In this document: one piece after another, positions 50,151 to 63,671 of the stretch
Layout of the letters: every line of letters starts with the position of its first letter
Numbering within the stretch: the stretch's first letter is position 1
NCBI GenBank assembly: GCA_963709345.1
Contig: CAVPVX010000002.1
Location: 160,001 to 224,000 of the forward strand
Direction of reading: 5' to 3'
DNA from: an uncultured Actinomycetes bacterium
GTDB taxonomy: Bacteria; Actinomycetota; Thermoleophilia; UBA2241
DNA length: 64,000 nt
Notes under the pieces: model-generated
What the model saw: only the letters and a program-made list of their open reading frames with translations
What the model was told of the DNA's origin: nothing
Databases searched by the model: none
Program-made: the position numbers and the translations under genes

Positions 50151-51052
50151 TCCTTCTCCTGCACAGCGTGCCCTCCGAACTCGTTGCGCAGGGCCGCGAG
50201 CACCTTGCCGCTGAACGTGTCGGGCTGGCGGGAGCGGAAGCGCGCGAAAAGGGCCGCGCTGATGGCAGGCATGGGCACGGAGTGAGCGATCGCCTGCTCG
50301 ACGGTCCAGCGTCCCTCTCCGGTATCCTCCACGTACCCCGTGATGTGCTCGAGGCCCGGGTCCTTCTTCAGAGCGCCCGCGGCGAGTTCGAGGAGCCAGC
50401 TGCGGACGACGCTGCCCTGGTTCCAGAGGTCGGCGATGGAGGCGAGGTCCAGATCCCAGTCGGTCGCCTCGAGCAGCTCGAAGCCTTCGGCGTACACCTG
50501 CATCATGCCGTACTCGATACCGTTGTGGACCATCTTGACGAAGTGGCCGGATCCGTGGCCGCCAGTGTACTCGTAGCCGTGACCGGGCGGGGCCAGGGTC
50601 TTCAGGACGGGCTCGACATGATCGAAGGCTGAGCGCTCGCCCCCGACCATGAGGCAGTACCCTACCTCAAGCCCCCACACTCCGCCGCTCGTTCCCGCGT
50701 CGAGGTAGCGGATACCTTGCACGCTCAGGGCGGCGCCGCGCTCGATGTCGTGCTGGAAGGGGGAGTTGCCCCCGTCCACGAGGATGTCTCCCTCGGCGAG
50801 CAGCGGCGCCAGCTGGTCGATCGCCGCCTGGGTCGCGTCGCCGTAAGGGAGCATCAGCCAGATCACGCGCGGCGCGGGCAGCGCCGCGACGACGCCGACG
50901 AGATCGCGGATCGGCTCGGCGCCCTCCGCCCCCAGCTCTTCGGCTTTCGCGAACGTGCGGTTCCAAACGACCACCCGATGGCCGCCGCGCAGCAGGCGCC
51001 GCGCCATGTTGCCGCCCATGCGACCCAGCCCGACCATGGCAACGTCCATCAC
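50147..51052 (-). CDS. gnd: 6-phosphogluconate dehydrogenase (short, decarboxylating)
   Basis: GLGRMG, DGGNS, DAGTSGG.WG, GHFVKMVHNGIEYG, LRNEFGGH. Confidence 0.95.
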   Translation of the reverse strand: MMDVAMVGLGRMGGNMARRLLRGGHRVVVWNRTFAKAEELGAEGAEPIRDLVGVVAALPAPRVIWLMLPYGDATQAAIDQLAPLLAEGDILVDGGNSPFQHDIERGAALSVQGIRYLDAGTSGGVWGLEVGYCLMVGGERSAFDHVEPVLKTLAPPGHGYEYTGGHGSGHFVKMVHNGIEYGMMQVYAEGFELLEATDWDLDLASIADLWNQGSVVRSWLLELAAGALKKDPGLEHITGYVEDTGEGRWTVEQAIAHSVPMPAISAALFARFRSRQPDTFSGKVLAALRNEFGGHAVQEKE

Positions 51053-51091
51053 GACCTCCTCGTCCGGCCGGGCCCACCCGGCGCCGCGGAC

Positions 51092-52783
51092 CTACCGCGT
51101 GAGCGCGACGGCGACGAGCTCCGTGAGGCGCTTGACCCCCGCGGGAACGTCGTCCCCCAGGCAGACGCGCAACGCGCGGCAGCCGTGCGCCCGCAGGGCG
51201 CCGAGGTCGCCGCGCGCCTGGGCGCGCTTGAGCACGCTGAAGCCGAACGGCTGGCCCGGGATGCTGACATCGTCCGGGTCGTGCCCCACGAGCTGGAGGA
51301 ACAAACCCCTGGTGGGGCCTCCCTTGTGGAACTGCCCCGTGGAATGCAGGTAGCGTGGACCGTAGCCGAGCGTGGTAGCGAGCCGCAGCCGCTCCCGGAG
51401 CTCGAGGCGAAGGGTCTGCAGGCAGCCCCAGGTCTCGTCGCCCGGGGCCACGTAGGCCTGCAGGGCGACGTACTCCCCCGGGCTCGCCTGCGCGAAGAAG
51501 CCGGCGAGCGCCGCAGGCAGCTCGCCGTCGGCAACCGGGAAGGCGAGCCGCCCGTCGCCCGCCGGCAGATCCTCGAGCAACTCGCCGGCGGCGATGTACC
51601 CGGCAAGCAGCCGCTTGGTGTTGTCCTTGCTCTCCTGCACGTTCGGCTGGTCGAAGGGATCGATGCCGAGCACGTGACCGGCGGTGGCGACGGCGATCTC
51701 CCAGCGCAGGAACTCGCCGCCCAGGTCGTAGACGTCGGCCAGTTCGTGCATGAGCACGGGGTGCCCGGCGGCCGCGAGGTCGAGCAGCCGTTGCGCAGCC
51801 GCCGCGGCGGCGACGCTCGCGAGGCCTACCGCGACGAACAGCCGGTCGTCCCCGTTCAGTTCCGGCTCGCCCAGCGCCTCCTGGTCGATCGGGAGAATGC
51901 CCGTCCCCTCCTTGCCGGTGCTCTCGGCGACGAGCTGCTCGACCCAGGCCCCGAGAGCGCGAAGCGGCGGCTCGAAGACGAGCGTGAGCTTGTCTCTGCC
52001 GGCCAGAGCAGCCTCGCCGAGGGCGGCGCCGAGAAACAGCGCCGGGTTCTCGGCCGCCGGCACATCGGGACCGCAGGCCACCGCCATCGCCCGCGCGCCG
52101 TCGAGGAGTCGCGTCAGGTCGACGCCGATCAGCGCCGCGGGGACCATACCGAAGAAGCTGAGCGCCGAGTACCGGCCGCCGATGTCGGCAGGGTTCATGA
52201 AGACGGCGCGAAAGCCCTGCTCCACGGCCTGTCGCTGCAGGGACGTGCCCTCGTCGGTGATCGCCACGAAGTGCCGCCCCGCGAGGTCGCCGCCCAGCTC
52301 CCGAAGGCGTTCGTAGAAGTAGGCGTGGAAGCACGCCGTCTCGGTCGTGCCGCCGGACTTGCTGGCGACGACGAAGAGCGTCGACTCGAGGTCCACGGCC
52401 GCCTCGACGGCGAGCACGGCGGCCGGGTCGGTCGAGTCGAGCACGTGCAGGTCGAGATAGCCGGCGCGCCGCCCCAGGACCGCGTGCAGCACCTCAGGTG
52501 CAAGGCTTGAGCCGCCCATGCCGAGCAGCACCGCGGAGCGGTACCCCTCGGCGAGCAGCTCGTCGACGAACTCGGTGAGCGCGTCGACCTCGCCGCGCAC
52601 GCCCTCGAAGACGCTCAGCCAGCCGAGGGCGTTCGCGATGACCGTCTGGTGCGACACGTCGTCGGCCTTCCACAGCGTGGGGTCGGCCTCCCAGAGGCGC
52701 TCCGCGACACGCTCGGCCGTCAGCTTCTCGAGCCGCCGGGAGACGGCCTCGCCGAGCCCCGCCGGAAGTGTGGAGCCGGCCAC
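51092..52783 (-). CDS. pgi: Glucose-6-phosphate isomerase (type found in Tal-Pgi fusions)
   Basis: GMGGSSL, SKSGGT.E, IGGRYS, QLVAESTGKEG, FDQPNVQESK, GPRYLHSTGQ. Confidence 0.9.
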   Translation of the reverse strand: MAGSTLPAGLGEAVSRRLEKLTAERVAERLWEADPTLWKADDVSHQTVIANALGWLSVFEGVRGEVDALTEFVDELLAEGYRSAVLLGMGGSSLAPEVLHAVLGRRAGYLDLHVLDSTDPAAVLAVEAAVDLESTLFVVASKSGGTTETACFHAYFYERLRELGGDLAGRHFVAITDEGTSLQRQAVEQGFRAVFMNPADIGGRYSALSFFGMVPAALIGVDLTRLLDGARAMAVACGPDVPAAENPALFLGAALGEAALAGRDKLTLVFEPPLRALGAWVEQLVAESTGKEGTGILPIDQEALGEPELNGDDRLFVAVGLASVAAAAAAQRLLDLAAAGHPVLMHELADVYDLGGEFLRWEIAVATAGHVLGIDPFDQPNVQESKDNTKRLLAGYIAAGELLEDLPAGDGRLAFPVADGELPAALAGFFAQASPGEYVALQAYVAPGDETWGCLQTLRLELRERLRLATTLGYGPRYLHSTGQFHKGGPTRGLFLQLVGHDPDDVSIPGQPFGFSVLKRAQARGDLGALRAHGCRALRVCLGDDVPAGVKRLTELVAVALTR

Positions 52784-52784
52784 G

Positions 52785-53945
52785 TCAGCTCCCCTCTCCC
52801 TCGAGCAGCGCCCGGCGCTTCTCCTCGACGATGGCGACGTCGGCGTCGAACGCCGCGACGAAGAGGTCGACGCCTTCCCGCCGCAGCCGCGCGCCCACGT
52901 CCTCCATGTCGATGCCCAGGTGGCTCAGCTCGCGCAGCACGCGATGCGCCTCGTCCAGGTGACGATCGACGGTGGGCGCGACTGTCCCGTGGTCCTTGAA
53001 CGCCTTCCACGTGGCCTCGGGCAGCGTGTTCACGGTGTACTCGCCGATCAGCTCGTCCACGTACAGGGTGTCGGGGTACGACGGATCCTTGACGCCGGTG
53101 CTCGCCCACAGCACGCGCTGGATCTTGGCGCCCGACGCCGCGATCAGCTGCCATTCGCGGCCGTTGAGGTAGCTGCGAAAGCGCTCGTAGACGACCTTGG
53201 CGTTGGCGACGCCCGCTCGGCGCTTGAGCCCCTGGATGCGCCGCCGCTCCGCCACGTCGGCGGCGGCCTCCGCCCGCTCGTCGAGCAGCTTGTCGACGAG
53301 CACGTCCACACGCGAGACGAACAGGCTCGCGACAGACGACGTGGCGCGGATCGTGAGGTCGTGCGAGAGCCGATACTCAAGCGCCTCCAGATAGACGTCG
53401 GCGACGGCCTCGTACTGGGTCAGCGAGAAAAGCAGGGTGATGTTGATGTTCAGCCCGTCCTGCAGGCAACGGAGCACGGCGGGCACGCCTTCGCGCGTCC
53501 CGGGGATCTTGATCAGGACGTTGGGCCTGTCGACGGCGGCGAACAGGCGCTGCGCCTCGGCGACGGTCTTCGCCGTGTCGTACGCGAGATGGGGGGAGAC
53601 TTCGATGCTCACGAACCCATCCGCGCCCCCGCTCCCCAGATAGACCGGTGCCAACACGTCGCAGGCGGCGCGGACGTCGTCAATGGCGAGCCTGTCGAGG
53701 ATATCCGCGGCGTCCAGGCCCTGATGAGCCAGACTCAGGATCTCCTCGTCGTACGCGTTCCCGCCGCCGATGGCCCGCTCGAAGATCGCGGGGTTCGTGG
53801 TGACACCGCCAAGGCCGTCGCGCTCCACCATCTTCCGGAGCCCGCCGCGGGCGATGAGCGCCCGGCTGATGTAGTCGAACCAGGGGCTTTGACCCAGACG
53901 GTTCAGTTCGGCGAGCCGGCTCTCGGCAGGCGGCACGGCGATCAC
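52785..53945 (-). CDS. tal: Transaldolase
   Basis: GQSPW.D, GVTTNP.IF, SIEVSP, LIKIP.T, NITLLF, S.FVSR.D, QRVLWAST. Confidence 0.94.
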   Translation of the reverse strand: MIAVPPAESRLAELNRLGQSPWFDYISRALIARGGLRKMVERDGLGGVTTNPAIFERAIGGGNAYDEEILSLAHQGLDAADILDRLAIDDVRAACDVLAPVYLGSGGADGFVSIEVSPHLAYDTAKTVAEAQRLFAAVDRPNVLIKIPGTREGVPAVLRCLQDGLNINITLLFSLTQYEAVADVYLEALEYRLSHDLTIRATSSVASLFVSRVDVLVDKLLDERAEAAADVAERRRIQGLKRRAGVANAKVVYERFRSYLNGREWQLIAASGAKIQRVLWASTGVKDPSYPDTLYVDELIGEYTVNTLPEATWKAFKDHGTVAPTVDRHLDEAHRVLRELSHLGIDMEDVGARLRREGVDLFVAAFDADVAIVEEKRRALLEGEGS

Positions 53946-55371: not shown

Positions 55372-55590
55372 TCAGCGGGGTGCGGCGGCGCTCTCCCGGA
55401 CCCTGAACTCGACCATCCGCCGGATCAGATCCTCGGGCATCGGCCTGTCGAGATGGAACCGCACCGAGCCTTCTGCGCTCTTGTACGGTTTGAGTTCCTC
55501 CTGGAAGGCCGCGATCCCGCTCGGCCCGGGATAGAACCCGACGTGCCGATCGTGCCCGGCGAAGTGCACGAGGTGCCTGCCGATGATGGC
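55372..55590 (-). pseudogene. DUF1801/YdhG-like C-terminal fragment
   Basis: LVHFAG..RHVGFYP...GI.AF.EEL.PY....GSVRF..D.P.P..LI.R.V.FRV; N-terminus replaced by unrelated sequence. Confidence 0.7.
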
Positions 55591-55712
55591 AGCCGAGAAC
55601 TCCTCGCGAGCGGAACGCTCGAAGGCAGCATCGTAGCCGCCGAAGTAGTACGGCAGAACACTCCACCGAGCGTCCACTTCAGCCCCCCCGCACAGGGATA
55701 GAGTCGGGCGCC

Positions 55713-55799
55713 CCCTAACGCCTCGCGCATGACCTGCGCGCTGAGAGCTCGGAGTATACCGCAAGGCTCGGGCGCCTCAGGTTGATGCGCTGTTTCGCT
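55713..55799 (-). repeat. attC site (slightly degenerate)
   Basis: Minus strand AGCGAAACAGCGCATCAACCTGA...CGCAGGTCATGCGCGAGGCGTTAGGG. Confidence 0.75.
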
Positions 55800-55854
55800 G
55801 AGCGACCGCCAATTCGGTCTGTCGTGAGACTCCCGCTGCATCCGGCAGGCAGAC

Positions 55855-56322
55855 CTAGATCCCACAGGCCAGCCCCTCCAGAGCTTGCCTCAGGGTGGCC
55901 GTCTGTTCTGCATCGGCGGCGCCCGTACCTCGCCAGACGATCGTCCCGTCGGGATCGAGCAGCATCAGGTGGATGGTCTCCCGCGACGGCAGTCCCAGCT
56001 GGCGCGCTAGTGACCCGAGGTCCGTGTATGCGGTCAGAGTGTGCCTACGGGCGTCCGGATCGCCGATACCGGCGCGCATACCGCCGTCGATGAACCCGCG
56101 TACGGGCAGGTACAGTCGCGACAGAGCCGGGACCTCCCAGACCGAGAGCTCGTGGCAGCGCGCCTCGAGCGCCTTGAGTTCCGGCTCCCACGTCTCGATG
56201 AGATCCTGGTGCCACCGTTGGAAGGCGAGCATGACGATGCGGGGCCCTGGCGGCAGATCCCCCGGGAGCCGGACTTCGCGGCCCTCAAGGTCGTGAGCGG
56301 TGATGGACGGAAACTGGGACAC
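55855..56322 (-). CDS. Thioredoxin-fold/ATP10-like hypothetical protein (gene cassette)
   Basis: FP.I...DLEG....LP.DL, AFQRWHQ, IDGGMR.GI, LLD..G.I.W...G; bounded by attC sites. Confidence 0.75.
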   Translation of the reverse strand: MSQFPSITAHDLEGREVRLPGDLPPGPRIVMLAFQRWHQDLIETWEPELKALEARCHELSVWEVPALSRLYLPVRGFIDGGMRAGIGDPDARRHTLTAYTDLGSLARQLGLPSRETIHLMLLDPDGTIVWRGTGAADAEQTATLRQALEGLACGI

Positions 56323-56375
56323 CGGATCTCCTTCGCTAGCGCTGCATACCCAGTTCGAACAGTTCCGACTGTCTC

Positions 56376-56461
56376 ACCGAACGCACCGCGGAAAGCTGCG
56401 AGCGCCGCGGCCCCATCTTGCCGCGACGCATCGGCGAGCCAGCTTGATCCGCTTGTTCGCC
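56376..56461 (-). repeat. attC site
   Basis: GGCGAAC AAGCGGATCAAGCTGG...CGCAGCTTTCCGCGGTGC GTTCGGT, 86 bp, begins right after the yoeB stop. Confidence 0.88.
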
Positions 56462-56725
56462 TCACCCGTAATGGGTCCACATCCTGAGCACTTTGACGAT
56501 GCGCTCGTCGGCGAGCACCTGATACACGAGGCGGTGCTGGATGTTGATGCGGCGCGAGTAGGCGCCGCTGAGGTCGCCGACGAGCTTCTCGAACGGCGGC
56601 GGCGACTGGAACGGGTCGGCCTCGAGGACCACGAGCAGTTCCTGCGCCTTCGGCTTGAGGCCGGCCGCGGCGAGCTTCTTCGCGTCCTTGCGCGCCTGCT
56701 TCGTGAAGAGCAGCCGCCAGCTCAC
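56462..56725 (-). CDS. yoeB: Txe/YoeB toxin
   Basis: W.L.FTKQA.KD, PP.EKL.GDL.G.YSRRIN.QHRLVY, RMWTHY. Confidence 0.92.
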   Translation of the reverse strand: MSWRLLFTKQARKDAKKLAAAGLKPKAQELLVVLEADPFQSPPPFEKLVGDLSGAYSRRINIQHRLVYQVLADERIVKVLRMWTHYG

Positions 56726-56964
56726 CAGTCGATCTCGCCCTCGAGCTCATCGACGGGAACCGCCATGCCCTCCAGGATGGACTCGCGCATGCCGGGGATC
56801 GAGACGAGGTAGAGCGTCTCCTGCACGGCGCGCCAGTCGTCCTCCGAGACGAGCACGGCGTTGCTGCGCTTGCCGGTGATCTGCACCGGCTCGTGCGAAC
56901 GTGCGACGTCGTCGAGGAGCTGGTAGAGCTGCTTGCGCGCTTCAGTGGCGCTCATGGTCGTCAT
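56722..56964 (-). CDS. yefM: Phd/YefM antitoxin
   Basis: SATEAR..LY.L.D.V..SHEPV.ITGKR.NAVLVSE.DW..VQETLYL. Confidence 0.92.
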   Translation of the reverse strand: MTTMSATEARKQLYQLLDDVARSHEPVQITGKRSNAVLVSEDDWRAVQETLYLVSIPGMRESILEGMAVPVDELEGEIDW

Positions 56965-56974
56965 CGCGGACCTC

Positions 56975-57019
56975 CCGTTACGTACGGGAAAGCGTACGGT
57001 AAAGGACGCTGGATGTCAA
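56975..57019 (-). promoter_or_regulatory. yefM-yoeB promoter/operator
   Basis: TTGACA-17 bp-TACGCT with two CGTACG palindromes before the GGAGG RBS. Confidence 0.7.
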
Positions 57020-57033
57020 GTGCACAGGGTTGT

Positions 57034-57119
57034 GGCGAACGTGTTTGCGCTTCACTCGCGATCTTGCGCTCCCATTATGCGTCAACCATGCACGAGTCGA
57101 GTGGAAGCGCGGGTTGGGC
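57034..57119 (-). repeat. attC site
   Basis: GCCCAAC CCGCGCTTCCACTCGAC...CGCGAGTGAAGCGCAAACAC GTTCGCC, 86 bp. Confidence 0.88.
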
Positions 57120-57168
57120 AGTGGGATCCGACAAACTCGAGTTGGCGCAGATGCAACAATTCGGAGTC

Positions 57169-57540
57169 CTAGACGTGCTGGTCAATCAGAATCGGGTTTC
57201 CGTCTGGATCCAGGATCATCAAGCTGGTAGGCCCTTCACTAGACTCGTCAGCCTCGCTTGCGAGTTCGAGCCCCCGTGCTCTCAGCTGTGACTGGATCTC
57301 ACGGACATCCGTGAACGAGTCGAGAGGTTTCGCGTCAGTGCTCCATCCCGGATTGAAGGTCAGGGTGTTGCGCTCGAACATGCCCTCGAACAGACCGATC
57401 ACCGTGCTTCCGTTCCTCATGATCAGCCACTTGTCTGCGGCATCGCCGCCGAAGGCGGTGAATCCTAGCTTCTCGTAGAACTCCCGAGAAGTGTCGATAT
57501 CGCTCACAGACAGACTGACGGAGAACGCACCGAGCTCCAT
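57169..57540 (-). CDS. VOC/glyoxalase family protein (gene cassette)
   Basis: MELGAFSVSLSV.D...S..FYEKLGF, IGLF.GMFE.N.LTFNPGW, DPDGNPILIDQH. Confidence 0.9.
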   Translation of the reverse strand: MELGAFSVSLSVSDIDTSREFYEKLGFTAFGGDAADKWLIMRNGSTVIGLFEGMFERNTLTFNPGWSTDAKPLDSFTDVREIQSQLRARGLELASEADESSEGPTSLMILDPDGNPILIDQHV

Positions 57541-57636
57541 GTGCTGCTCCTCTCGTTCCGACGACCGGCAGGGGCGCGACCTGGGGCATGATACTGCCCG
57601 CTCATGGTCTGCGTGTCTCAGAGAATCTTCCCATCT

Positions 57637-57722
57637 GCCCAACGCACCGCGGATAGGCTGCGAGCGCCGCGGCTTCGTCTTGCCGCGACGCTTTGGCGAG
57701 CCAGCTGATCCGCTTGTTGGAC
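57637..57722 (-). repeat. attC site
   Basis: GTCCAAC AAGCGGATCAGCTGG...CGCAGCCTATCCGCGGTGC GTTGGGC, 86 bp; close sequence relative of the 56376 site. Confidence 0.9.
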
Positions 57723-57735
57723 AGACCCACCACCC

Positions 57736-58039
57736 TCAGGCAGCGGTCCCTGACCACGGCTTGATGCGTGCGAGCTGATCGGTCAGCGCCTCCTCGGCGA
57801 CCTCGGTGTCGTGGGCCGCCTGGGCGCGCAGCCAGTAGCCGTTGGAGAGGCCGAAGAAGCGGCACAGGCGCAGGTCGGTATCGGCCGTGATCGCGCGCCG
57901 GCCGGCGACGATCTCACCGATGCGCTGCGCCGGCACGCCGATCTCCTTGGCGAGCCGGTACTGGGTGATGCCCATGGGCAGCGAGGAACTCCTCGAGCAG
58001 CAGCTCGCCGGGTGTCACGGGCTTGAGCTTCTCGTCCAT
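57736..58039 (-). CDS. higA: HigA antitoxin (one frameshift near 57980)
   Basis: PVTPGELLLEEFL / PMGITQYRLAKEIGVP..RI.EIV.G.RAITADT.LRL.R.FG. Confidence 0.85.
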
Positions 58040-58050
58040 CGCTCGCGCTC

Positions 58051-58329
58051 CTAGTGGTAGTCCACGATCTCGACGTCTTCGGCGCCGCCGGCGGTCCAGC
58101 GGAAGCAGACGCGGTACTGGTCGTTGATGCGGATGCTGTGCTGGCCGGCGCGGTCGCCTCTGAGCGCCTCGAGCCGGTTGCCCGGCGGCACCCGCAAGTC
58201 GTCCAGCCGCCCGGCGATCTCGAGCTGGCGCAGCTTGCGCCGCGCGACCGTCTCGATGCTCGCGAACCGCTTCACGCGCCGGCCGCCGGCCAGCTTCTCG
58301 GTGTCGCCGTCCTTGAACGAGACGATCAT
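58051..58329 (-). CDS. higB: HigB toxin
   Basis: MI.SF.D..TE.L, RKL..L, DLR.PPGNRLE.L.GDR.GQHSIRINDQYR.CF.W, VEIVDYH. Confidence 0.93.
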   Translation of the reverse strand: MIVSFKDGDTEKLAGGRRVKRFASIETVARRKLRQLEIAGRLDDLRVPPGNRLEALRGDRAGQHSIRINDQYRVCFRWTAGGAEDVEIVDYH

Positions 58330-58334
58330 GCCGA

Positions 58335-58363
58335 ATAGTAACGTTACGCGTTAGTAACGTCAA
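58335..58363 (-). promoter_or_regulatory. higBA promoter with palindromic operator, probably leaderless mRNA
   Basis: TTGACG-17 bp-TACTAT-5 bp-ATG; spacer contains GTAACGTTAC-type palindromes. Confidence 0.7.
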
Positions 58364-58401
58364 GCATGATTACCGGTGATCGACCGCCACGCCTTGGTTC
58401 T

Positions 58402-58491
58402 GTCCAACGCACGCACCGCGCATGAGCAGACGCGGACGACCTGCCGCCGTGCGGCAGGCCTGCTGGCGTTCTGCTCTTGCGCTTGTCAGAT
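58402..58491 (-). repeat. attC site (degenerate)
   Basis: ATCTGAC AAGCGCAAGAGCAGA...TCTGCTCATGCGCGGTGCGTGC GTTGGAC. Confidence 0.75.
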
Positions 58492-58496
58492 CCCAC

Positions 58497-58793
58497 CTAC
58501 GGTGCGATCTCGCCTTCGTCGAAGTCCCTTGCAGCGTGCCGAACAGCGGCGATCTCGGCCACATCGACGCTGCGACGATACATCACGCGGTAGGGCTCCA
58601 CGATGATCTCGCGAATCTCCTCACGCTGCAGCTCCGGCACGATGCGGCCCGAGTCCGGATAGTCGGCCAGGGACTTGACCCGCTCGAGCAGGCGCTCAAG
58701 CCAACGATGCGCGGCGGCGGGATCGTCGGCGGCGATGTAGGCCAGCGCGTCGTCGACCTGTCCATCGGCCAGCGGAGACCAAGTGAGCCTCAC
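58497..58793 (-). CDS. RelE/ParE toxin
   Basis: L.WSPLA......YIA.D.P.AA, L..YP.SGR.VPE, REII..PYRV.YR. Confidence 0.88.
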   Translation of the reverse strand: MRLTWSPLADGQVDDALAYIAADDPAAAHRWLERLLERVKSLADYPDSGRIVPELQREEIREIIVEPYRVMYRRSVDVAEIAAVRHAARDFDEGEIAP

Positions 58794-59074
58794 TTCAGGT
58801 GGCGCTCACGCAGGCGCCGCTCGACGGCCTCGTGGGGGATGCCCATGCCGGCGTCGAGTTGGGCCTCGGCAGTGCGGATGTCACGGATCACCGCGACCTC
58901 GTCGACCAAGGCCTCGTAGGCCTCGACGTCGAGCAGCACCGCTGCGCTGCGGCCGTGCTGGGTGAGGATCACGGGACGCTTGGTCTTGTGGACCTGCTCG
59001 AGTACGGCCGAGGTGTGGGAGCGGAATTCGGTCACGGCACGCACATCGACTGAGGGGCGCAATACTGCCATCAT
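58790..59074 (-). CDS. Phd/YefM antitoxin
   Basis: DVR.VTEFR......L.QV..TKRPVILTQHGRSAAVLLDVE.YE. Confidence 0.9.
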   Translation of the reverse strand: MMAVLRPSVDVRAVTEFRSHTSAVLEQVHKTKRPVILTQHGRSAAVLLDVEAYEALVDEVAVIRDIRTAEAQLDAGMGIPHEAVERRLRERHLK

Positions 59075-59141
59075 GGCCTCCGGTTAGGTACGCAATGACG
59101 TGCAGTATAGCGTATCGAACCCCTCGGCGCTACGGGGTTGG

Positions 59142-59228
59142 GTCCAACGTATCAGGCATAAGTCGCACCGCACGCGCTTCTCTTCCGCAGTCTACCTGCG
59201 GGGAGTCAGGTTGATGCCTTTGTTGGAC
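59142..59228 (-). repeat. attC site
   Basis: GTCCAAC AAAGGCATCAACCTGAC...GACTTATGCCTGATAC GTTGGAC, 87 bp. Confidence 0.88.
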
Positions 59229-59261
59229 GGACCCGACGAGCTGCGGATTCGTGCTCGCGCC

Positions 59262-59474
59262 CTAACCCGGCGCGATGTCGAGTGCAAGACATCCTCACGG
59301 ACGCCGCGTTTCGAGTAGAGCGCGATAGCAGGCTCGTCGCCGAGATCGGCCGGAACGAATACGACCCAGCGCCGCGCTCCGCTGCGATGTGCCGAAGCTG
59401 CTCGATCAGCGACGTCGCTATGCCGCGCCGCCGGTGTGACGCGATGTACGCCAGGTCGTCGATGTAGATCTCGC
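59262..59474 (-). pseudogene. AAC(3)-I family aminoglycoside N-acetyltransferase, 3' remnant
   Basis: REIYIDDLA....HRRRGIATSLI..L..IAAERGA / VVFVPADLGDEPAIALYSKRGVREDVLH / DI matches the AAC(3)-I C-terminal half. Confidence 0.75.
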
Positions 59475-59778
59475 GCGCGGAGCGCGTGAAGAGGACCCTG
59501 CGGCTCACGGCCTGCCGAGCAGCTCGTCGGCCTCGGCGAGCACGTCGGCGAGCGCGTGACCCGTGCCGGCTCGATCTCGGCCTCGCCGCGGGCGAGCAGG
59601 CGCAGGATCTCAAGTTCATGCTGCGTGCGCTCGTAGGCCCTCGCGCTGACGACGACGGCGGCCGCGCGCCGCGCTGCGTGATGAAGACCGGCTGCTGCGA
59701 GTCGGATGCGCGCCTGATGATGCCCGAGGCGTCCTGACGCAAATCAGTGATGGGGACGATGTCTGGTACTGATGCCAT
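59473..59778 (-). pseudogene. Phd antitoxin (frameshifted) plus first codons of a RelE/ParE toxin
   Basis: IVPITDLRQDA..I......QPVFITQRG; then VSRRVLFTRSAR, truncated by a deletion into the aac remnant. Confidence 0.75.
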
Positions 59779-59846
59779 TTACGATACCTCCTCTGCTACT
59801 GGCAACGGTACCACCAACGCACCCTCGCGAACAGTGAGACGGCTGT

Positions 59847-59943
59847 GACTAACGCGATTGCGCATCAGCTGCGAGGCGCGGCGATCCGCTTCGGCCCGAG
59901 TCTTCCGCTCGAGCGCCGAGTCTGCTGGATGCGCTGGTCAGGC
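59847..59943 (-). repeat. attC site
   Basis: GCCTGAC CAGCGCATCCAGCAGAC...CGCAGCTGATGCGCAATCGC GTTAGTC, 97 bp. Confidence 0.85.
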
Positions 59944-60000
59944 GTGCGCCTATTGTGTGGTAGCATTCATGTGCTACTGCGATTCTAGGGAAGGAGAGCG

Positions 60001-60228
60001 ATGACTCGCGGACTGAAGCTCCGCCAGGCCGGCGGTTCGATCAGCGCCACGCTCCCGAAGGATATGGCCGAGCGCCTGCACCTCGAGGCTGGCGACACGG
60101 TGCTTGCCGTGGAGACCGAGCGCGGCATCCTGCTCACGCCCTACGACCCTGAGGTCGAGGAGACAATCGCCATCGCCGGCAAGGTGGCCAGGCGCTACCG
60201 CAACGCACTCCGCGAGCTGGCCAAGTAG
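60001..60228 (+). CDS. AbrB/MazE-type antitoxin
   Basis: KLRQAGGS...TLPKD...RLHL..GD.V..VET..GILLTPYDP, Y.NAL.ELAK. Confidence 0.88.
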   Translation: MTRGLKLRQAGGSISATLPKDMAERLHLEAGDTVLAVETERGILLTPYDPEVEETIAIAGKVARRYRNALRELAK

Positions 60229-60231
60229 CCG

Positions 60232-60648
60232 GTGGCAAGGCGCACGGGGGAGCCACGCTGGGTCGACCGCCTGGTCGTCGAGGCCGTGCAGTTCGACCTC
60301 ATCCGCGAGCACGGCGGCATGCCCGGCCTGCGCGACGAGCACGGGCTCGAGGCGGCTCTCGCCCGACCGCAGCAGTGGCGCGCCTATCGCCCCGACGCAG
60401 ACCTCGCCGAGCTGGCGGCGGCCTACGGACACGGCCTCGCGACCGGGCACCCGTTCCACGACGGCAACAAGCGCATCGCCTTCGTCACCACGGCAGTCTT
60501 CCTCGAGCTCAACGGAGTCACGCTCGAGGCGGACGAAGCAGAGGTCGTCACGGTGATACTCAGCCTGGCTGCCGGTGAGACGACGGAAGACCAGCTTGCC
60601 TCCTGGGTGAGGACGAGGACCGCAACGGCTGGGCAAGCGTCCGGCTAA
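60232..60648 (+). CDS. doc: Doc/Fic toxin
   Basis: HGG.PGLRD...LE.ALARP, HPF.DGNKR; stop TAA lies inside the attC core GGCTAAC. Confidence 0.9.
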   Translation: MARRTGEPRWVDRLVVEAVQFDLIREHGGMPGLRDEHGLEAALARPQQWRAYRPDADLAELAAAYGHGLATGHPFHDGNKRIAFVTTAVFLELNGVTLEADEAEVVTVILSLAAGETTEDQLASWVRTRTATAGQASG

Positions 60649-60740
60649 CGTTGAGCGGGGGAGCTGCCGGGCGCAGCGCTCCGCCTGCAATCTACTCTAC
60701 CGTTGCGAGCGCCCGGGTCTGCTCAATCCGCTGGCTAGCC
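60643..60740 (-). repeat. attC site
   Basis: GGCTAGC CAGCGGATTGAGCAGAC...GGCAGCTCCCCCGCTCAAC GTTAGCC, 98 bp. Confidence 0.8.
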
Positions 60741-60749
60741 AGGCGGCCT

Positions 60750-61208
60750 CTAGGGCTTCGAAGCCCTTTCCTCAAGACTGGCCTTGTGCGACTGCAGGAA
60801 CGCTCGCCCGATGTTCGAACTGCCGAAGGTCCTGTAGAAGAAGCCCAGCAAGCCTGGGGCTTCGACATCGCTGATGGTGACGCGGTGATCGACTCCGCCG
60901 GCGCTCGCCGTGAACTCGTCGAGGAAGTGCGACCGTGCCTTGACCTTCGATCCGGCCTGGTAATCCTCATCGAGCTCGACCGTCACGCTCTCGGGCTCGA
61001 CACGTACGGTGATCCCCGAGCGCCGCATCAGCCCCTCGTTGGTCCGTATGACCACGAAGTCAGAGCCCTGCTCCACTAGCTCTACACTCGTCATGCCCGG
61101 CATGCGGCTGACGACGTCGACGTAGAACTCGCCGAGGTTCTCGAACGCCTGCTTCACTTGCTGGATGCTGCACTCGATCTGGTTGGAGTCCTCAAACCAA
61201 GCTGACAT
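60750..61208 (-). CDS. SRPBCC-like hypothetical protein (gene cassette)
   Basis: GGAGG RBS; alpha/beta START-like pattern; bounded by attC sites. Confidence 0.65.
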   Translation of the reverse strand: MSAWFEDSNQIECSIQQVKQAFENLGEFYVDVVSRMPGMTSVELVEQGSDFVVIRTNEGLMRRSGITVRVEPESVTVELDEDYQAGSKVKARSHFLDEFTASAGGVDHRVTISDVEAPGLLGFFYRTFGSSNIGRAFLQSHKASLEERASKP

Positions 61209-61264
61209 GACTCGTCCTCCCACACTGTAGGAAGTGCCGTTTCAAGACCGCCGTGCCTCGCCCT

Positions 61265-61340
61265 GGCTAACGTTCTTGCGCATCAGCTGGGAGGCGCAGC
61301 GATGCTTCCCTGCCTGATTCTACCTGTCGAGCGCCGAGGA
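61265..61340 (-). repeat. attC half site (right arm only)
   Basis: ...CTGCGCCTCCCAGCTGATGCGCAAGAAC GTTAGCC, similar to the 59847 site; left arm deleted. Confidence 0.75.
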
Positions 61341-61378
61341 CTCACGCTCCGCGGCGGCGTCGAAGCGCAGGACGCGGC

Positions 61379-61600
61379 TCATCCGCGGCGGGCACGCGCC
61401 CTGGCGAGGACCTCGTCGGCGGGAGAGGTGGCAGCGCCGGCGTCGATCTCGGCGTCGCGGCGCGCCGCCTCAGCGAGCCAGAGCTGTTCGACCTCGGCCT
61501 CGGAGAGTTCGTCGAGGCTGTCGAGCAGCCGGTGGGCGAGATGGGCCCGGCCTTGGGGGTCGAGGGTGAGCGCCTCGCGCATGAGTTCGTCGATGGTCAC
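61379..61600 (-). CDS. Addiction-module antitoxin (TIGR02574-like), followed by a truncated ParE start (61341-61382)
   Basis: EAL.L....RA.LA..LL.SLD......E..W..EA.RR..EI..G; overlapping MSRVLRFDAAAERE is cut off. Confidence 0.8.
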   Translation of the reverse strand: MTIDELMREALTLDPQGRAHLAHRLLDSLDELSEAEVEQLWLAEAARRDAEIDAGAATSPADEVLARARARRG

Positions 61601-61686
61601 GCCTGCCACCTCGCTTCCGCACTGCGCCGACACCTGCATTGTACCGCCGCGCCCAGACGGCTGACAGATGACGATGGGGGTGTTGC

Positions 61687-61770
61687 GGCTAACGTTCGGA
61701 GCATGACCCGCGAACCGCGGCCCGCACGCGCCTTCATTTTCATGGTACTACGTGCCCGCTGCCGGTCGTG
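61687..61770 (-). repeat. Degenerate attC/half site at the array 5' end
   Basis: ...TTCGCGGGTCATGCTCCGAAC GTTAGCC right arm; no clear RYYYAAC left arm. Confidence 0.55.
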
Positions 61771-61906
61771 ACCTGCACGCCCCCGGGCGGGCCGTGCGGT
61801 CCTGCGCCGCGAATCACCCGTTCCGGGTGAGGCGACGGCGGCAGGGCCGCGCTACGTTCAGTGGGACGCATCACCGCGCCGGGAAGGCACGCGAAAGGAG
61901 AGACCC

Positions 61907-62275
61907 ATGCAACGCAGGTCCGTCATCGCGACCGTTGCCCTCATCCTGCTACTGGCGGGACTCGCGGCGGCCGGGTCGTCCATCGGGTCGGCGCCCTCCC
62001 CCTCGGAGGCGACCGGCCTCCCGCGGCCGGCGTCGGCCCTCATGCCCGAGCAGCTGCAGACGAGTTCAGCGCTCCCGGGCAGCGAGGCCGTTGCGTTCGC
62101 CCCCGGCGGCATGAGCGGCGACTTCGCCGCGCGTCGGCTCGCCGACGCCGGCGCGCTCCGGGCGCCGTCGATCTACATCCCGTCGGACAGATGGCGGTTC
62201 CGGCTGCCCGGCGCCCGCGCGCACCGTCTTCTGACACCCGCCACCAGGATGGCCGCGGCAAGGTACGCCGCGTGA
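61907..62275 (+). CDS. Secreted hypothetical protein
   Basis: AAAGGAG RBS, signal-peptide-like N-terminus. Confidence 0.45.
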   Translation: MQRRSVIATVALILLLAGLAAAGSSIGSAPSPSEATGLPRPASALMPEQLQTSSALPGSEAVAFAPGGMSGDFAARRLADAGALRAPSIYIPSDRWRFRLPGARAHRLLTPATRMAAARYAA

Positions 62276-62285
62276 GCAGGAGTCG

Positions 62286-63671
62286 CTAGACCTTCTTCAC
62301 GCCGGCGATCAGCTTGCCGACCACGTCCTGGGCGTCGCCGTAGACCATGCGCGTGTTGTCCGCGTAGAACAGCTTGTTCTCGATGCCGGCGAACCCGGCG
62401 CCGCGGCCGCGCTTGATCACGAACGCTTGTTGGGCCTTGTCGACGTCGAGGATCGGCATGCCGTAGATGGGGCTGCCGGGATCGTCGCGGGCGGCGGGGT
62501 TGACGACGTCGTTGGCGCCGATGACGATGGCCGCGTCGGCCGTGGGGAACTCGCCGTTGATCTCGTCCAGGTCGTAGATCATGTCGTAGGGCACGCCGGC
62601 CTCGGCGAGCAGGACGTTCATGTGCCCGGGCATGCGGCCGGCGACCGGGTGAATGGCGAACTTCACCTGGATGCCGCGCTCTCCGAGCAGCTTGGCCAGC
62701 TCCCAGACCTTGTGCTGCGCCTGGGCGACGGCCATGCCGTAGCCGGGCACGATGATCACCTTCTGCGCGAACGCGAGAGTGACGGCGGCGTCGTCCGGGC
62801 TCGACTCCTTCATCGCGCCCTCGATGGCCTCCAGTTCCTGCCCACCCTTGGCGCCGAAGCCTGCGAAGAGGACGTTGCCGATGGAGCGGTTCATGGCCTT
62901 GGCCATCATCTGCGTGAGCAGGGTGCCGGCGGCGCCGACTACGATACCGGCGATGATCAACGCGCCGTTGCCGAGCACGTAGCCCTCGAGGCCGACGGCC
63001 AGACCCGTGAGGGCGTTGTAGAGGCTGATGACCACCGGCATGTCGGCGCCGCCGATGGGCAGCGTCATGAGCACGCCGTAGAGCAGCGCGAGCGCGAAGA
63101 AGAGCGCCAGCACGAGGCCCTCGTTGCCGCCCATGTTGCCGGTGTGTTGCAGGGCCGCGATGACGGCCAGCGCGACCGCGGCCGCCAGGACCAGCAGGTT
63201 GAGGACGTTCTGGCCCGGGAAGAGGAACGACTTCTTGATGATCCCCTGCAGCTTGGCGAAGGCGATCATGCTGCCGCTGAAGCTGACGGAGCCGATGAGG
63301 GCGCCGATGATGCCGAGCACGGCGAAGCTCGCCGGCATGGTCTCCGGCTTCATGAACTCGACGGCGGCGATCAGCGCTGCCGCGCCGCCGCCCATGCCGT
63401 TGTAGATCGCGACCATCTGCGGCATGTCGGTCATCGCGACCTTGCGCGCCGCGACGTAGGCGATCGCGGCGCCGATGGCAATCGCTATCGTCATCAGCAG
63501 GTAGTTGCTCATCTCCGGCGTCGCGAAGGTGATCGCCGTGGCGACCAGCATGCCGACGCCGGCCCAGATGATGCCGCGCCGCGCCGTGCGCGGCGAGCTC
63601 ATGCTCTTGAGGCCGAGGATGAAGAGAACGGCGGCGGCGATGTAGGCGATCTGGATCAGGTCAGCGCGCAT
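62286..63671 (-). CDS. pntB: NAD(P) transhydrogenase subunit beta
   Basis: MTDMPQMVA..NG.GG, PIGGADMPVVIS..N, PGYGMAVAQAQH, HPVAGRMPGHMNVLLAEA. Confidence 0.97.
   Translation of the reverse strand: MRADLIQIAYIAAAVLFILGLKSMSSPRTARRGIIWAGVGMLVATAITFATPEMSNYLLMTIAIAIGAAIAYVAARKVAMTDMPQMVAIYNGMGGGAAALIAAVEFMKPETMPASFAVLGIIGALIGSVSFSGSMIAFAKLQGIIKKSFLFPGQNVLNLLVLAAAVALAVIAALQHTGNMGGNEGLVLALFFALALLYGVLMTLPIGGADMPVVISLYNALTGLAVGLEGYVLGNGALIIAGIVVGAAGTLLTQMMAKAMNRSIGNVLFAGFGAKGGQELEAIEGAMKESSPDDAAVTLAFAQKVIIVPGYGMAVAQAQHKVWELAKLLGERGIQVKFAIHPVAGRMPGHMNVLLAEAGVPYDMIYDLDEINGEFPTADAAIVIGANDVVNPAARDDPGSPIYGMPILDVDKAQQAFVIKRGRGAGFAGIENKLFYADNTRMVYGDAQDVVGKLIAGVKKV

What the first reader, a model, noticed from the sequence alone, without database searches (positions are those of the whole stretch)
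55713..61770. Integron-type attC cassette array (CALIN) in a probable actinobacterial chromosome
Seen in sequence: about 10 imperfect palindromes, with the 8 complete ones 86-98 bp long. They start at 55713, 56376, 57034, 57637, 58402, 59142, 59847 and 60643, with half sites at 61265 and 61687. All are oriented the same way and read on the minus strand RYYYAAC-AAGCGxATC(A)xCxGAC...GCxGxTxATxCGC...GTTRRRY, with the extra base in the left L box. Each separates one gene or one TA pair. The cargo (TA modules, VOC, AAC(3)-I, SRPBCC-like) is typical of integron cassettes. Established knowledge: native integrons are mainly known from Gram-negative phyla and are considered rare in Actinobacteria apart from acquired class 1 elements. 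Inference: this is a native, GC-adapted cassette array in a lineage not known for integrons. It is the best candidate for an undescribed system here.
Basis: partly seen in the sequence, partly recalled or inferred. Interest (0 to 1): 0.92.

Follow-up and report, generated by a model that had tools for sequence, protein, structure and literature searches.

The report
Integron cassette array without its integrase
A row of nine small mobile gene cassettes, each ending in an integron recombination site, sits in the chromosome of an uncultured Thermoleophilia actinobacterium, a group long said to lack integrons.

Summary
Eight complete imperfect palindromes of 86-98 nt, plus two decayed ones, lie at the stated coordinates. 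All read on the minus strand, and each closes one gene or one toxin-antitoxin pair.

They are integron attC sites:
- A covariance model built from them finds only about 11 more sites in the 3.1 Mb genome. Three of these lie directly behind a full-length integron integrase (IntI) on another contig.
- In 80 IntI loci of other genomes, 137 of 137 hits lie downstream of intI.
- In 106 neighbouring site pairs, the outer box of a site matches the inner box of the upstream site perfectly in 76. It matches its own inner box in 10. This is the footprint of crossover at G|TT.
- The model ranks the two canonical attC sites of an E. coli class 1 integron first and second.

The host's RpoB is 89-90% identical to that of MAGs titled Thermoleophilia. 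In congeners intI sits just behind pntB. Here pntB is followed by the array without intI, so this array is the old integron locus that lost its integrase. The genome's only intI lies in a block inserted next to a tRNA gene.

This is a known kind of system in an unexpected lineage. Activity was not tested.

The parts
62286..63671 (-). pntB (NAD(P) transhydrogenase beta subunit). It is the conserved chromosomal anchor; in congeners intI follows it on the same strand.
   Evidence: PF02233, 587 bits. pntB lies 94-2182 nt from intact or broken intI in 10 same-genus genomes (coordinates). tblastn finds pntB upstream of IntI in 8 named loci.
61775..62285 (+). Spacer with a small ORF (61907-62275, 122 aa, no family). 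It is homologous to the stretch between pntB and intI in L055 and L069. Colinearity with those loci ends near 61775, where intI and attI would begin.
   Evidence: blastn: window 62400-61775 matches L055 4505-5131 at 70.5%. tblastn of the small ORF hits L069 and L055. No Pfam or NCBIfam hit.
61687..61723 (-). Truncated attC. Only the 3' arm (L' and R', GTTAGCC) is left. It marks the upstream end of the array.
   Evidence: nhmmer profile positions 51-86 only, E 2. Sequence read. No attI-like motif here, unlike behind intI on C7, L030, L031, L038 and L039.
61271..61692 (-). Cassette A. It holds a lone antitoxin gene (61379-61639, Unstab_antitox) and a decayed attC (61265-61338) whose 5' arm carries deletions.
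   Evidence: PF09720, E 1.7e-9. nhmmer positions 44-86, E 0.22. 77% nt homologue inside the IntI-linked array of L056, and 73% on own C5.
60649..61270 (-). Cassette B. It holds a 157-aa ORF (60750-61223), possibly SRPBCC/Polyketide_cyc2-like, with attC 60643-60740.
   Evidence: R1 62.2 bits. No Pfam, NCBIfam or PDB sequence match. Atlas look-alikes are Polyketide_cyc2 clusters at 0.96.
59853..60648 (-). Cassette C. It holds MazE/AbrB antitoxin (60001-60228, +) and Fic/Doc toxin (60232-60648, +), transcribed against the array, with attC 59847-59943.
   Evidence: PF04014 and PF02661. 90.5% nt homologue in L034 behind IntI. A second copy at 86.7% lies on own C7 at 431988-432638, starting exactly at the R' box.
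59148..59852 (-). Cassette D, decayed. It carries the N-terminus of a Phd antitoxin and a GNAT fragment nearest AAC(3)-I, joined in one broken frame (59206-59778), with attC 59142-59228.
   Evidence: PF02604 and PF00583 partial hits. NF033083, 42.4 bits against cut-off 200. Stops in the direct translation. 87% nt homologues of the Phd part in L069 and L056.
58408..59147 (-). Cassette E. It holds Phd/YefM antitoxin (58790-59074) and ParE toxin (58497-58793), with attC 58402-58491.
   Evidence: PF02604, E 1.6e-16, and PF05016, E 1.1e-17. 77% homologue in L043.
57643..58407 (-). Cassette F. It holds HigB toxin (58051-58329) and HigA antitoxin (57736-58040, apparently frameshifted near 57981), with attC 57637-57722.
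   Evidence: PF05015 and PF01381. 88-90% homologues in L061 and L054 that end at the attC sites. Metagenome contigs lack one base at 57981/57982 (table 4).
57040..57642 (-). Cassette G. It holds a glyoxalase/VOC-family protein (57169 to about 57541), with attC 57034-57119.
   Evidence: PF00903, E 6e-6. A 651-nt metagenome contig covers 57045-57646 with 12 differences (table 8).
56382..57039 (-). Cassette H. It holds Phd/YefM antitoxin (56722-56964) and a YoeB/ParE-like toxin (56462-56725), with attC 56376-56461.
   Evidence: PF02604, E 9e-19, and PF06769, E 4e-10. 91.7% homologue in L038 and 86.5% in L036, ending at the cassette start.
55719..56381 (-). Cassette I. It holds a 155-aa ORF of unknown family (55855-56322), with attC 55713-55798, the last site of the array.
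   Evidence: R1 66.6 bits. No credible Pfam, NCBIfam or PDB match.

Best explanation
The stretch 55713-61723 is an integron cassette array that lacks an integrase gene (a CALIN). It lies on the chromosome of an uncultured Thermoleophilia (Actinomycetota) bacterium.

It holds nine cassettes read on the minus strand. Each starts with TT plus four bases and ends with an attC site. Five or six of the cassettes are toxin-antitoxin modules.

Inferred mechanism, by analogy with studied integrons:
- The bottom strand of each attC (here the + strand) folds into a hairpin. The hairpin has an R box, a short asymmetric spacer, an L stem with one flipped-out G, and a variable tip.
- The integron integrase cuts it between the C and the AA of the conserved AAC (G|TT on the top strand).
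- Cassettes leave as circles by attC x attC recombination and re-enter at attI.

The only IntI of this genome is on contig C7. It could act on this array in trans.

The array marks the ancestral integron site of the genus, immediately behind pntB. Here intI and attI have been lost, leaving a truncated attC at the junction. An intI-attI block with four and a half cassettes now sits next to a tRNA gene. The TA cassettes probably hold the array in place.

Shown: site anatomy, crossover footprint, link to IntI, shared cassettes, synteny.
Inferred: folding in vivo, current activity, the order of the rearrangements.
For: 1. Anatomy. There are 8 complete sites, with a 16-pair consensus and 9 covarying pairs.

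2. Covariation in independent sites. In 119 further sites from other loci, 94.8% of cells pair against 80.4% in shuffles. There are 240 double-sided changes against 65, with 0 of 500 shuffles reaching this. Slid controls pair at 17-36%.

3. Rarity and clustering. The covariance model R1 gives 8 training sites plus 11 others at E<=0.01 in 3.1 Mb. An unfiltered nhmmer scan gives the same 19 at E<0.1.

4. Link to IntI.
- The genome has one IntI: TIGR02249, 464 bits against a cut-off of 265, covering profile positions 1-315.
- It is 52.5% identical to IntI1. All six catalytic residues and the IntI-specific insert align.
- Three R1 sites follow it.
- In 80 IntI loci, 137 of 137 R1 hits lie downstream of intI and 136 are on its strand. 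348 kb upstream and 243 kb downstream were scanned.

5. Crossover footprint. In 106 neighbour pairs, the four variable bases of R'' equal the complement of the upstream R' in 76 and of the site's own R' in 10. Means are 3.5 against 2.2; random gives 2.18 +/- 0.08. Three of the window's 7 pairs are perfect.

6. Canonical sites. R1 ranks the two attC sites of a class 1 integron (L111) first and second of 26 matches, on the cassette strand and directly behind the aadA and aadB genes. The 'UC' bulge aligns with theirs.

7. Shared cassettes. Six window cassettes (A, C, D, E, F, H) have 74-92% nt homologues inside IntI-linked arrays of other MAG loci. Homology ends at attC sites and the order differs.

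8. Specificity. 0 of 5 IntI-less genomes of other families of the class have an R1 hit at E<=0.01.

9. Ancestral locus. pntB is next to intI in congeners. Window colinearity with L055 stops at 61775. No IntI remnant is in the window.
Against: - Folding energies are only modestly better than shuffles, and two of eight are not better at all (z -0.14 and +0.24).
- Three of eight R'' boxes lack AAC, two sites are truncated, and cassettes D and F look broken. The array may therefore be a fossil.
- No integrase lies within the window. Action in trans is inferred.
- No read-level evidence of excision was obtained. Only contigs were available, and the joints seen have short sides of 21-33 nt at near-identical attC sites.
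- The alignment A2 was fitted to the model and the genomes are kin, so the statistics overstate independence.
- The genome search scored only 150 of about 6000 prefilter candidates per genome.
- The genome is an 11-contig assembly of an uncultured organism. Taxon names come from record titles of relatives.
- IntegronFinder's own attC model could not be run.
Confidence: 0.85

Rival explanations
1. The array was built afresh at a secondary genomic site. On this reading IntI, acting from elsewhere, inserted cassettes one after another behind pntB, and the locus never held an integrase.
For: Secondary-site (attG) insertion is a described route. I saw the Loot et al. 2024 title only in the reference list of PMC13323075. 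The genome has several other small attC clusters far from intI, on C5, C6, C11 and at C7 765-772 kb. IntI-less congeners also carry arrays away from pntB, for example G007 contig C15.
Against: The place is exactly where 10 same-genus genomes carry intact or broken intI, in the same orientation. The pntB-side spacer is colinear with the pre-intI spacer of L055 and L069. The array begins with the 3' arm of an attC, not with a simple hybrid core.
Confidence: 0.08
2. Assembly artefact. On this reading the organism really has intI next to pntB and the array, and the assembler moved the intI block to contig C7.
For: The genome is a metagenome-style assembly of 11 contigs. The intI block on C7 has sharp borders, and it ends inside a MazE-Doc cassette of the kind also present in the window.
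Against: Both junctions lie deep inside long contigs (437 kb and 777 kb), with synteny to relatives on both sides. The two MazE-Doc copies are only 86.7% identical, so they are not one repeat collapsed or swapped. The window junction shows a truncated attC, not a clean join.
Confidence: 0.05
3. The palindromes are REP-like intergenic repeats or shared transcription terminators, unrelated to integrons.
For: They are GC-rich hairpins placed just after stop codons. Their folding energy is not far from that of shuffled sequence.
Against: There are only about 19 copies in six clusters. They associate strictly with IntI, in one orientation. They carry the crossover footprint. The model recognises canonical attC sites. 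No hits occur in 5 IntI-less genomes of the same class.
Confidence: 0.02

Closest known systems
CALIN (cluster of attC sites lacking an integron integrase), as defined by IntegronFinder (Cury 2016; Neron 2022, PMC9024848, passages read)
   Same: It is a run of same-strand attC sites, each closing a short cassette, with no intI nearby. The cargo is rich in TA modules and small proteins of unknown function. It shows signs of decay.
   Different: Its origin can be traced here. It lies at the genus's own integron site behind pntB, and the genome still has an intact intI elsewhere. The host phylum is one in which that paper reports no complete integrons, one In0 and only 'a few CALIN'.
[quoted passage not shown]
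   Same: In this lineage intI is followed on the same strand by an attI-like site and the cassette array. 137 of 137 hits are downstream of intI and 136 are on the same strand. The arrays hold more than 10 sites and many TA cassettes.
   Different: The host is a GC-rich actinobacterial class. The anchor is pntB. In this genome the platform and the main array are separated.
attC sites of class 1 integron cassettes (aadA and aadB cassettes on E. coli plasmid locus L111)
   Same: The R''/R' cores are the same, as are the 'AA' after R'' and the flipped-out base at the 16th position from the outer end of R''. The L-box pairing is shared, and the position directly after the gene is the same. The model aligns over its full length.
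   Different: The sites here are 86-98 nt against 60 nt. Three of the five spacer bases next to the L box are paired (GCG/CGC), leaving an unpaired spacer of 2 nt against 5-6 nt. Scores of the canonical sites are low (23.7 and 12.7 bits), so sequence similarity is slight.
IntI1 and other integron integrases (NCBIfam TIGR02249)
   Same: The genome's IntI matches the whole profile at 464 bits. It is 52.5% identical to IntI1 and keeps the six catalytic residues and the family-specific insert.
   Different: It is encoded in Thermoleophilia. It is not in the window, and its activity is untested.

Membership tests
integron attC site | Inverted core sites: R'' (RYYYAAC) at the 5' end and R' (GTTRRRY) at the 3' end of the top strand | tested here: met
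   In the window, GTT is present in 8 of 8 sites and AAC in 5 of 8 (the others have GAC, GAC and AGC). Across all 154 sites, GTT is present in 137 and AAC in 134.
integron attC site | Imperfect palindrome whose arms pair (L''/L'), kept by structure rather than by sequence | tested here: met
   9 of 16 pairs covary among the 8 sites. In 119 independent sites, 12 of 16 pairs have double-sided changes and 94.8% of cells pair, against 80.4% in shuffles and 17-36% in slid controls.
integron attC site | Extrahelical base(s) on the '' arm of the bottom strand, which set the recombining strand | tested here: met
   The consensus has 2 nt on the '' arm against 1 nt on the ' arm, with 'TC' in 114 of 119 sites. 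This alignment was fitted to the model. The bulge aligns with the 'UC' of the aadA and aadB attC sites. By my reading of the folds, 6 of the 8 window sites have a net extra base on that arm; 57637 and 58402 have a 1x1 mismatch instead.
integron attC site | Unpaired central spacer between the R and L boxes | tested here: inconclusive
   An unpaired, asymmetric spacer exists: 2 nt against 5 nt in 92 of 119 sites and 6 nt in 24 of 119. However, three positions that are unpaired in the class 1 sites are GC-paired here. Whether this matters for IntI was not tested.
integron attC site | Crossover at G|TT of R', so that R'' of a cassette complements the TT-plus-four bases at that cassette's own start (the R' of the upstream site) | tested here: met
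   76 of 106 neighbour pairs are perfect with the upstream R', against 10 of 106 with the site's own R'. Random gives a mean of 2.18 of 4 against 3.5 observed. Three of 7 pairs in the window are perfect.
integron attC site | One site at the 3' end of each short, mostly promoterless cassette | tested here: met
   There are nine cassettes of 422-796 nt, each holding one gene or one TA pair. Promoters were not examined.
integron attC site | Genomic association with an integron integrase | tested here: met
   Sites of the same family lie directly behind intI on own contig C7. In 36 of 80 IntI loci they are always downstream. 0 of 5 IntI-less genomes of other families have hits.
integron attC site | Detection by the curated attC covariance model of IntegronFinder, or by HattCI | not testable with these tools
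   Neither program nor its model is available here. The reverse test, my model on canonical sites, was positive but weak.
integron attC site | Recombination by IntI as folded single strands | not testable with these tools
   This needs an experiment.
CALIN | Two or more attC sites with no integron integrase gene close by (the 4 kb rule is recalled from the IntegronFinder papers) | tested here: met
   tblastn of the genome's IntI against the 64-kb window gives a best E of 0.56. The only intI is on contig C7.
integron integrase (IntI), for the genome's enzyme | Tyrosine recombinase with the IntI-specific insert and the catalytic R-K-H-R-H-Y residues, scoring above the family cut-off | tested here: met
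   TIGR02249 at 463.9 bits against a cut-off of 265, covering profile positions 1-315 in one stretch. All six residues align with those of IntI1 and the insert aligns without a gap. The residue numbers of IntI1 are recalled.
REP / intergenic palindromic repeats | Many copies scattered genome-wide, independent of any recombinase | tested here: not met
   There are about 19 sites in six clusters in 3.1 Mb.

The most novel reading that the evidence does not exclude
Integrons may be native, vertically kept and still working in several uncultured lineages of Actinomycetota. They are found in about half of the species sampled in this Thermoleophilia genus and in roughly 6% of a phylum-wide species sample.

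These integrons have their own GC-rich attC type with a partly paired spacer, an attI with direct repeats, and a fixed chromosomal anchor behind pntB.

On this reading, the repeated statement that Actinobacteria lack integrons would be an artefact of cultured-genome sampling, and perhaps of attC models trained on Proteobacteria. In this genome one IntI, moved to a tRNA-side block, would serve several integrase-less arrays in trans.
Probability: 0.5. Interest if true: 0.75.

Novelty: new member of a known kind. Interest (0 to 1): 0.6.

Why it matters
The IntegronFinder papers and a 2026 permafrost survey describe Actinobacteria/Actinomycetota as lacking complete integrons or virtually lacking integrons. 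They treat the reason as an open question (passages read in PMC9024848 and PMC13323075).

This case gives a Gram-positive, 68% GC lineage with three things together:
- a full-length IntI;
- arrays of more than ten cassettes in relatives;
- a clear crossover footprint.

That makes two questions testable. One is whether integron recombination, which depends on single-strand folding and host factors, works in Actinobacteria. The other is whether current attC models miss such sites.

It also gives a traceable example of how a CALIN arises from an integron. The cargo itself (TA modules and small enzymes) is ordinary, and no intact resistance gene is present.

Tried and rejected
- Folding energy as proof. 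z-scores were too modest to carry the case, so I relied on covariation and position.
- PDB sequence searches for cassette proteins B and I gave only noise. NCBIfam gave nothing for B, I, the DUF1801-like ORF or the small ORF.
- An IntI remnant between pntB and the array was sought and none was found.
- An attI-like motif at the array start was sought and is absent.
- A simple cut-and-paste link was considered, in which the window would begin with the missing tail of the MazE-Doc cassette truncated on C7. By eye there is only a faint resemblance, so I did not pursue it.
- Sequencing runs. No RNA holder is listed. No run holds half of the words; the best share is 0.18.
- Laid contigs of four runs from four studies cover single cassettes only. 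The joints between attC sites have sides of 21-33 nt, and I do not count them as excision.
- Literature. Searches found no paper describing native integrons in Thermoleophilia, Coriobacteriia or other Actinomycetota. Supplementary tables were closed, so a listing in a large survey's supplement cannot be excluded.

Full report
**Observation**

- I set the ends of the eight complete ones at the conserved AAC on the + strand and the matching GTT-type box. This gives lengths of 86, 86, 86, 86, 90, 87, 97 and 98 nt.
- On the minus strand each site follows one gene or one toxin-antitoxin pair.
- The MAFFT alignment and RNAalifold give one common hairpin. It has a 5-7 bp outer (R) helix, an asymmetric unpaired spacer, a 5-6 bp helix, a bulge with one more base on the 5' arm, a second helix and a variable tip.
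- 9 of the 16 pairs show compensatory changes.
- Free energy alone is not convincing in this 68% GC DNA. Bottom-strand z-scores run from -3.00 to +0.24, and two of eight are no better than shuffles.

**Not a genome-wide repeat**

- A covariance model of the eight sites (R1) found 11 further sites at E<=0.01 in the 3.1 Mb genome, plus two weaker ones. Only 150 of 6025 prefilter candidates were scored.
It also returned the two decayed window sites as partial matches.
- The sites form six clusters: the window array; three sites on C7 at 429.8-431.0 kb; four on C7 at 765-772.5 kb; two on C5; two on C11; one on C6.

**Link to an integron integrase**

- The genome encodes one integron integrase, at C7:428003-429064. 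It scores 464 bits on TIGR02249 against a cut-off of 265 and covers the whole profile.
- It is 53% identical to IntI1 of more than 5000 plasmid records. In a pairwise alignment it keeps all six catalytic residues and the family's insert without a gap.
- Three R1 sites follow it on the same strand. A fourth, short site and a second MazE-Doc cassette lie beyond them.
- In 80 loci around IntI relatives from other genomes, R1 found 137 sites at E<=0.01 in 36 loci. 136 are on the IntI strand and all 137 lie downstream of it. 348 kb upstream and 243 kb downstream were searched.
- This is the 'inverted integrase' layout described in the methods passage of PMC13323075.
- Weak hits in the same position occur in loci labelled Cyanobacteria, Neomarinimicrobiota, Acidobacteriota and Desulfobacteraceae.
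- On 119 sites that exclude the training set, 94.8% of cells pair against 80.4% in shuffles and 17-36% in slid controls. There are 240 double-sided changes against 65. That alignment is fitted to the model and the genomes are kin.

**Crossover footprint**

If cassettes move by a cut between G and TT of R', the outer box R'' of a cassette should complement the six bases at that cassette's own start. In an array those bases belong to the upstream site.
- 154 sites in 41 arrays give 113 neighbour pairs. I left out 7 pairs more than 1600 nt apart and the one minus-strand hit in L053, leaving 106 pairs.
- The four variable bases of R'' match the upstream R' perfectly in 76 pairs and the site's own R' in 10.
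- Mean matches are 3.5 against 2.2. Random partners give 2.18 +/- 0.08.
- In the window, three of seven pairs are perfect (57637, 57034, 56376). The others score 3, 2, 2 and 1, which fits some decay.

**Comparison with canonical sites**

- On a 13-kb E. coli plasmid stretch with intI1 and the aadB and aadA cassettes, R1 with filters off ranked the two known attC positions first and second of 26 matches (E 2.4e-4 and 0.13).
- Both matches are full length, on the cassette strand and directly behind the genes.
- The alignment puts the 'UC' bulge on theirs, so the flipped-out base is the 16th from the outer end of R'' in both.
- The difference is that three spacer positions next to the L box are GC-paired here. 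This leaves an unpaired spacer of 2 nt against 5-6 nt.

**Shared cassettes**

- blastn of the array against the 80 loci shows 74-92% nucleotide homologues inside IntI-linked arrays of other MAGs. These cover cassettes A, C, D, E, F and H, in another order.
- Homology ends at attC sites. Examples are 56444-57042 in L038, 57635-58489 in L061 and 59915-60649 in L034.
- On own C7, the second MazE-Doc copy begins exactly at the R' box.
- Contigs of four metagenome runs from four studies hold single cassettes only. One 1014-nt contig matches just 61342-61670. I treat this as weak support.

**Host**

- RpoB of the genome is 90, 90 and 89% identical to that of three MAGs whose record titles read 'uncultured Thermoleophilia bacterium'. 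It is 65% identical to that of a Coriobacteriia-labelled MAG.
- pntB and its surroundings on the window's contig are 91-95% identical at protein level to Thermoleophilia- or Actinomycetes-labelled loci.

**Distribution**

- IntI above the cut-off is found in 12 of 24 sampled congeners. Two of those are split over two frames and two carry an in-frame TAG. It is found in 0 of 16 genomes of other families of the class.
- In an even sample of the phylum it is found in 23 of 400 species genomes, or 21 of 398 without two unpublished ones. The hits are concentrated in a few families, f16 6/10 and f18 7/21.
- Five IntI-less genomes of other families have no R1 hit. Five IntI-less congeners have 2-20 hits.

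**Origin of this array**

- In ten congeners pntB lies 94-2182 nt upstream of an intact or broken intI on the same strand (coordinates). tblastn shows the same in eight named loci.
- In the window, pntB and a small ORF are colinear with L055 down to 61775. Then come a truncated attC and the array, with no IntI remnant and no attI-like motif.
- An attI-like motif (direct repeats followed by a GTTAG core) is conserved behind intI on C7, L030, L031, L038 and L039.
- The genome's intI block (C7, about 427790-432640) is an insertion next to a tRNA gene when compared with a congener. It ends inside a MazE-Doc cassette at the mazE start codon.
- I therefore read the window array as the ancestral integron locus after loss or removal of intI-attI. 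The exact rearrangement is not resolved.

**Literature**

[quoted passage not shown] It also notes that most integron-type recombinase contigs were not called complete, possibly because of attC detection.
- I saw single passages of PMC9668308, PMC11089894 and 10.1101/2024.07.02.601686. Other papers I saw only as search listings.
- Seven searches found no description of native actinobacterial integrons. Supplements were closed.

**Verdict**

This is a genuine integron cassette array without integrase. It is a known kind of system in a lineage where it is unexpected. It is partly decayed, and its activity is untested.

Noticed in passing
G000 contig C7:427790-432640 (L001, L017, L022, L025): This is the genome's only intI, with an attI-like site (direct repeats, then a GTTAGCC core), four cassettes and a MazE-Doc cassette cut at the mazE start codon. 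The block sits as an insertion between a tRNA gene and the next conserved gene when compared with a congener (L114).
   Followed up: partly
G000 C7:764924-772521; C5:11720-13150; C11:246074-246789; C6:78440-78537: Four further small clusters or single attC sites of the same family lie far from intI. One is near a weak tyrosine-recombinase match at C7:767140-767307.
   Followed up: no
window 57975-57985 (higA) and about 55273 (methyltransferase 5' end): higA reads through only with a frame change. Metagenome contigs lack one base at 57981/57982. The methyltransferase left of the array has an in-frame TAG 17 codons after its start. These may be real decay or assembly indels.
   Followed up: partly
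L043 7008-7699, L042 2076-2795, L080 1686-1905: In three relatives a MazE-Doc operon homologous to cassette C lies directly behind intI in the forward direction, opposite to its orientation in the window and in L034. It may be a fixed stabiliser of the platform rather than a cassette.
   Followed up: no
L054, L057, L062, L071, L076: Loci labelled Deltaproteobacteria, Pelobacter, Desulfuromonadales or Desulfobacteraceae carry IntI that is 65-72% identical to this one. L054 has the best-scoring attC of all (91 bits). This could be gene transfer or mislabelled bins.
   Followed up: no
G000 contig C2, whole: GC skew of the + strand is negative along nearly all of the 437 kb (one 20-kb window reads +0.001). 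The attC bottom strands (+ strand) are therefore probably on the leading-strand template. As I recall, that is the arrangement reported for sedentary chromosomal integrons. The array is 65.8% GC against 69-71% in the flanks.
   Followed up: partly
window 55372-55764 (-): A DUF1801-like ORF follows the last attC without a site of its own. It may be a former cassette or the first native gene.
   Followed up: no
G007:C15:152584-165712: A congener without an IntI match above the cut-off carries an array of at least 18 attC sites on one strand. It is not on the contig that holds its pntB.
   Followed up: no
window 48495-53945 (-): A pentose-phosphate gene row lies left of the array: glucose-6-phosphate dehydrogenase, a 6-phosphogluconate dehydrogenase-like protein, a PGI-domain protein and transaldolase. 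This is ordinary housekeeping context.
   Followed up: no
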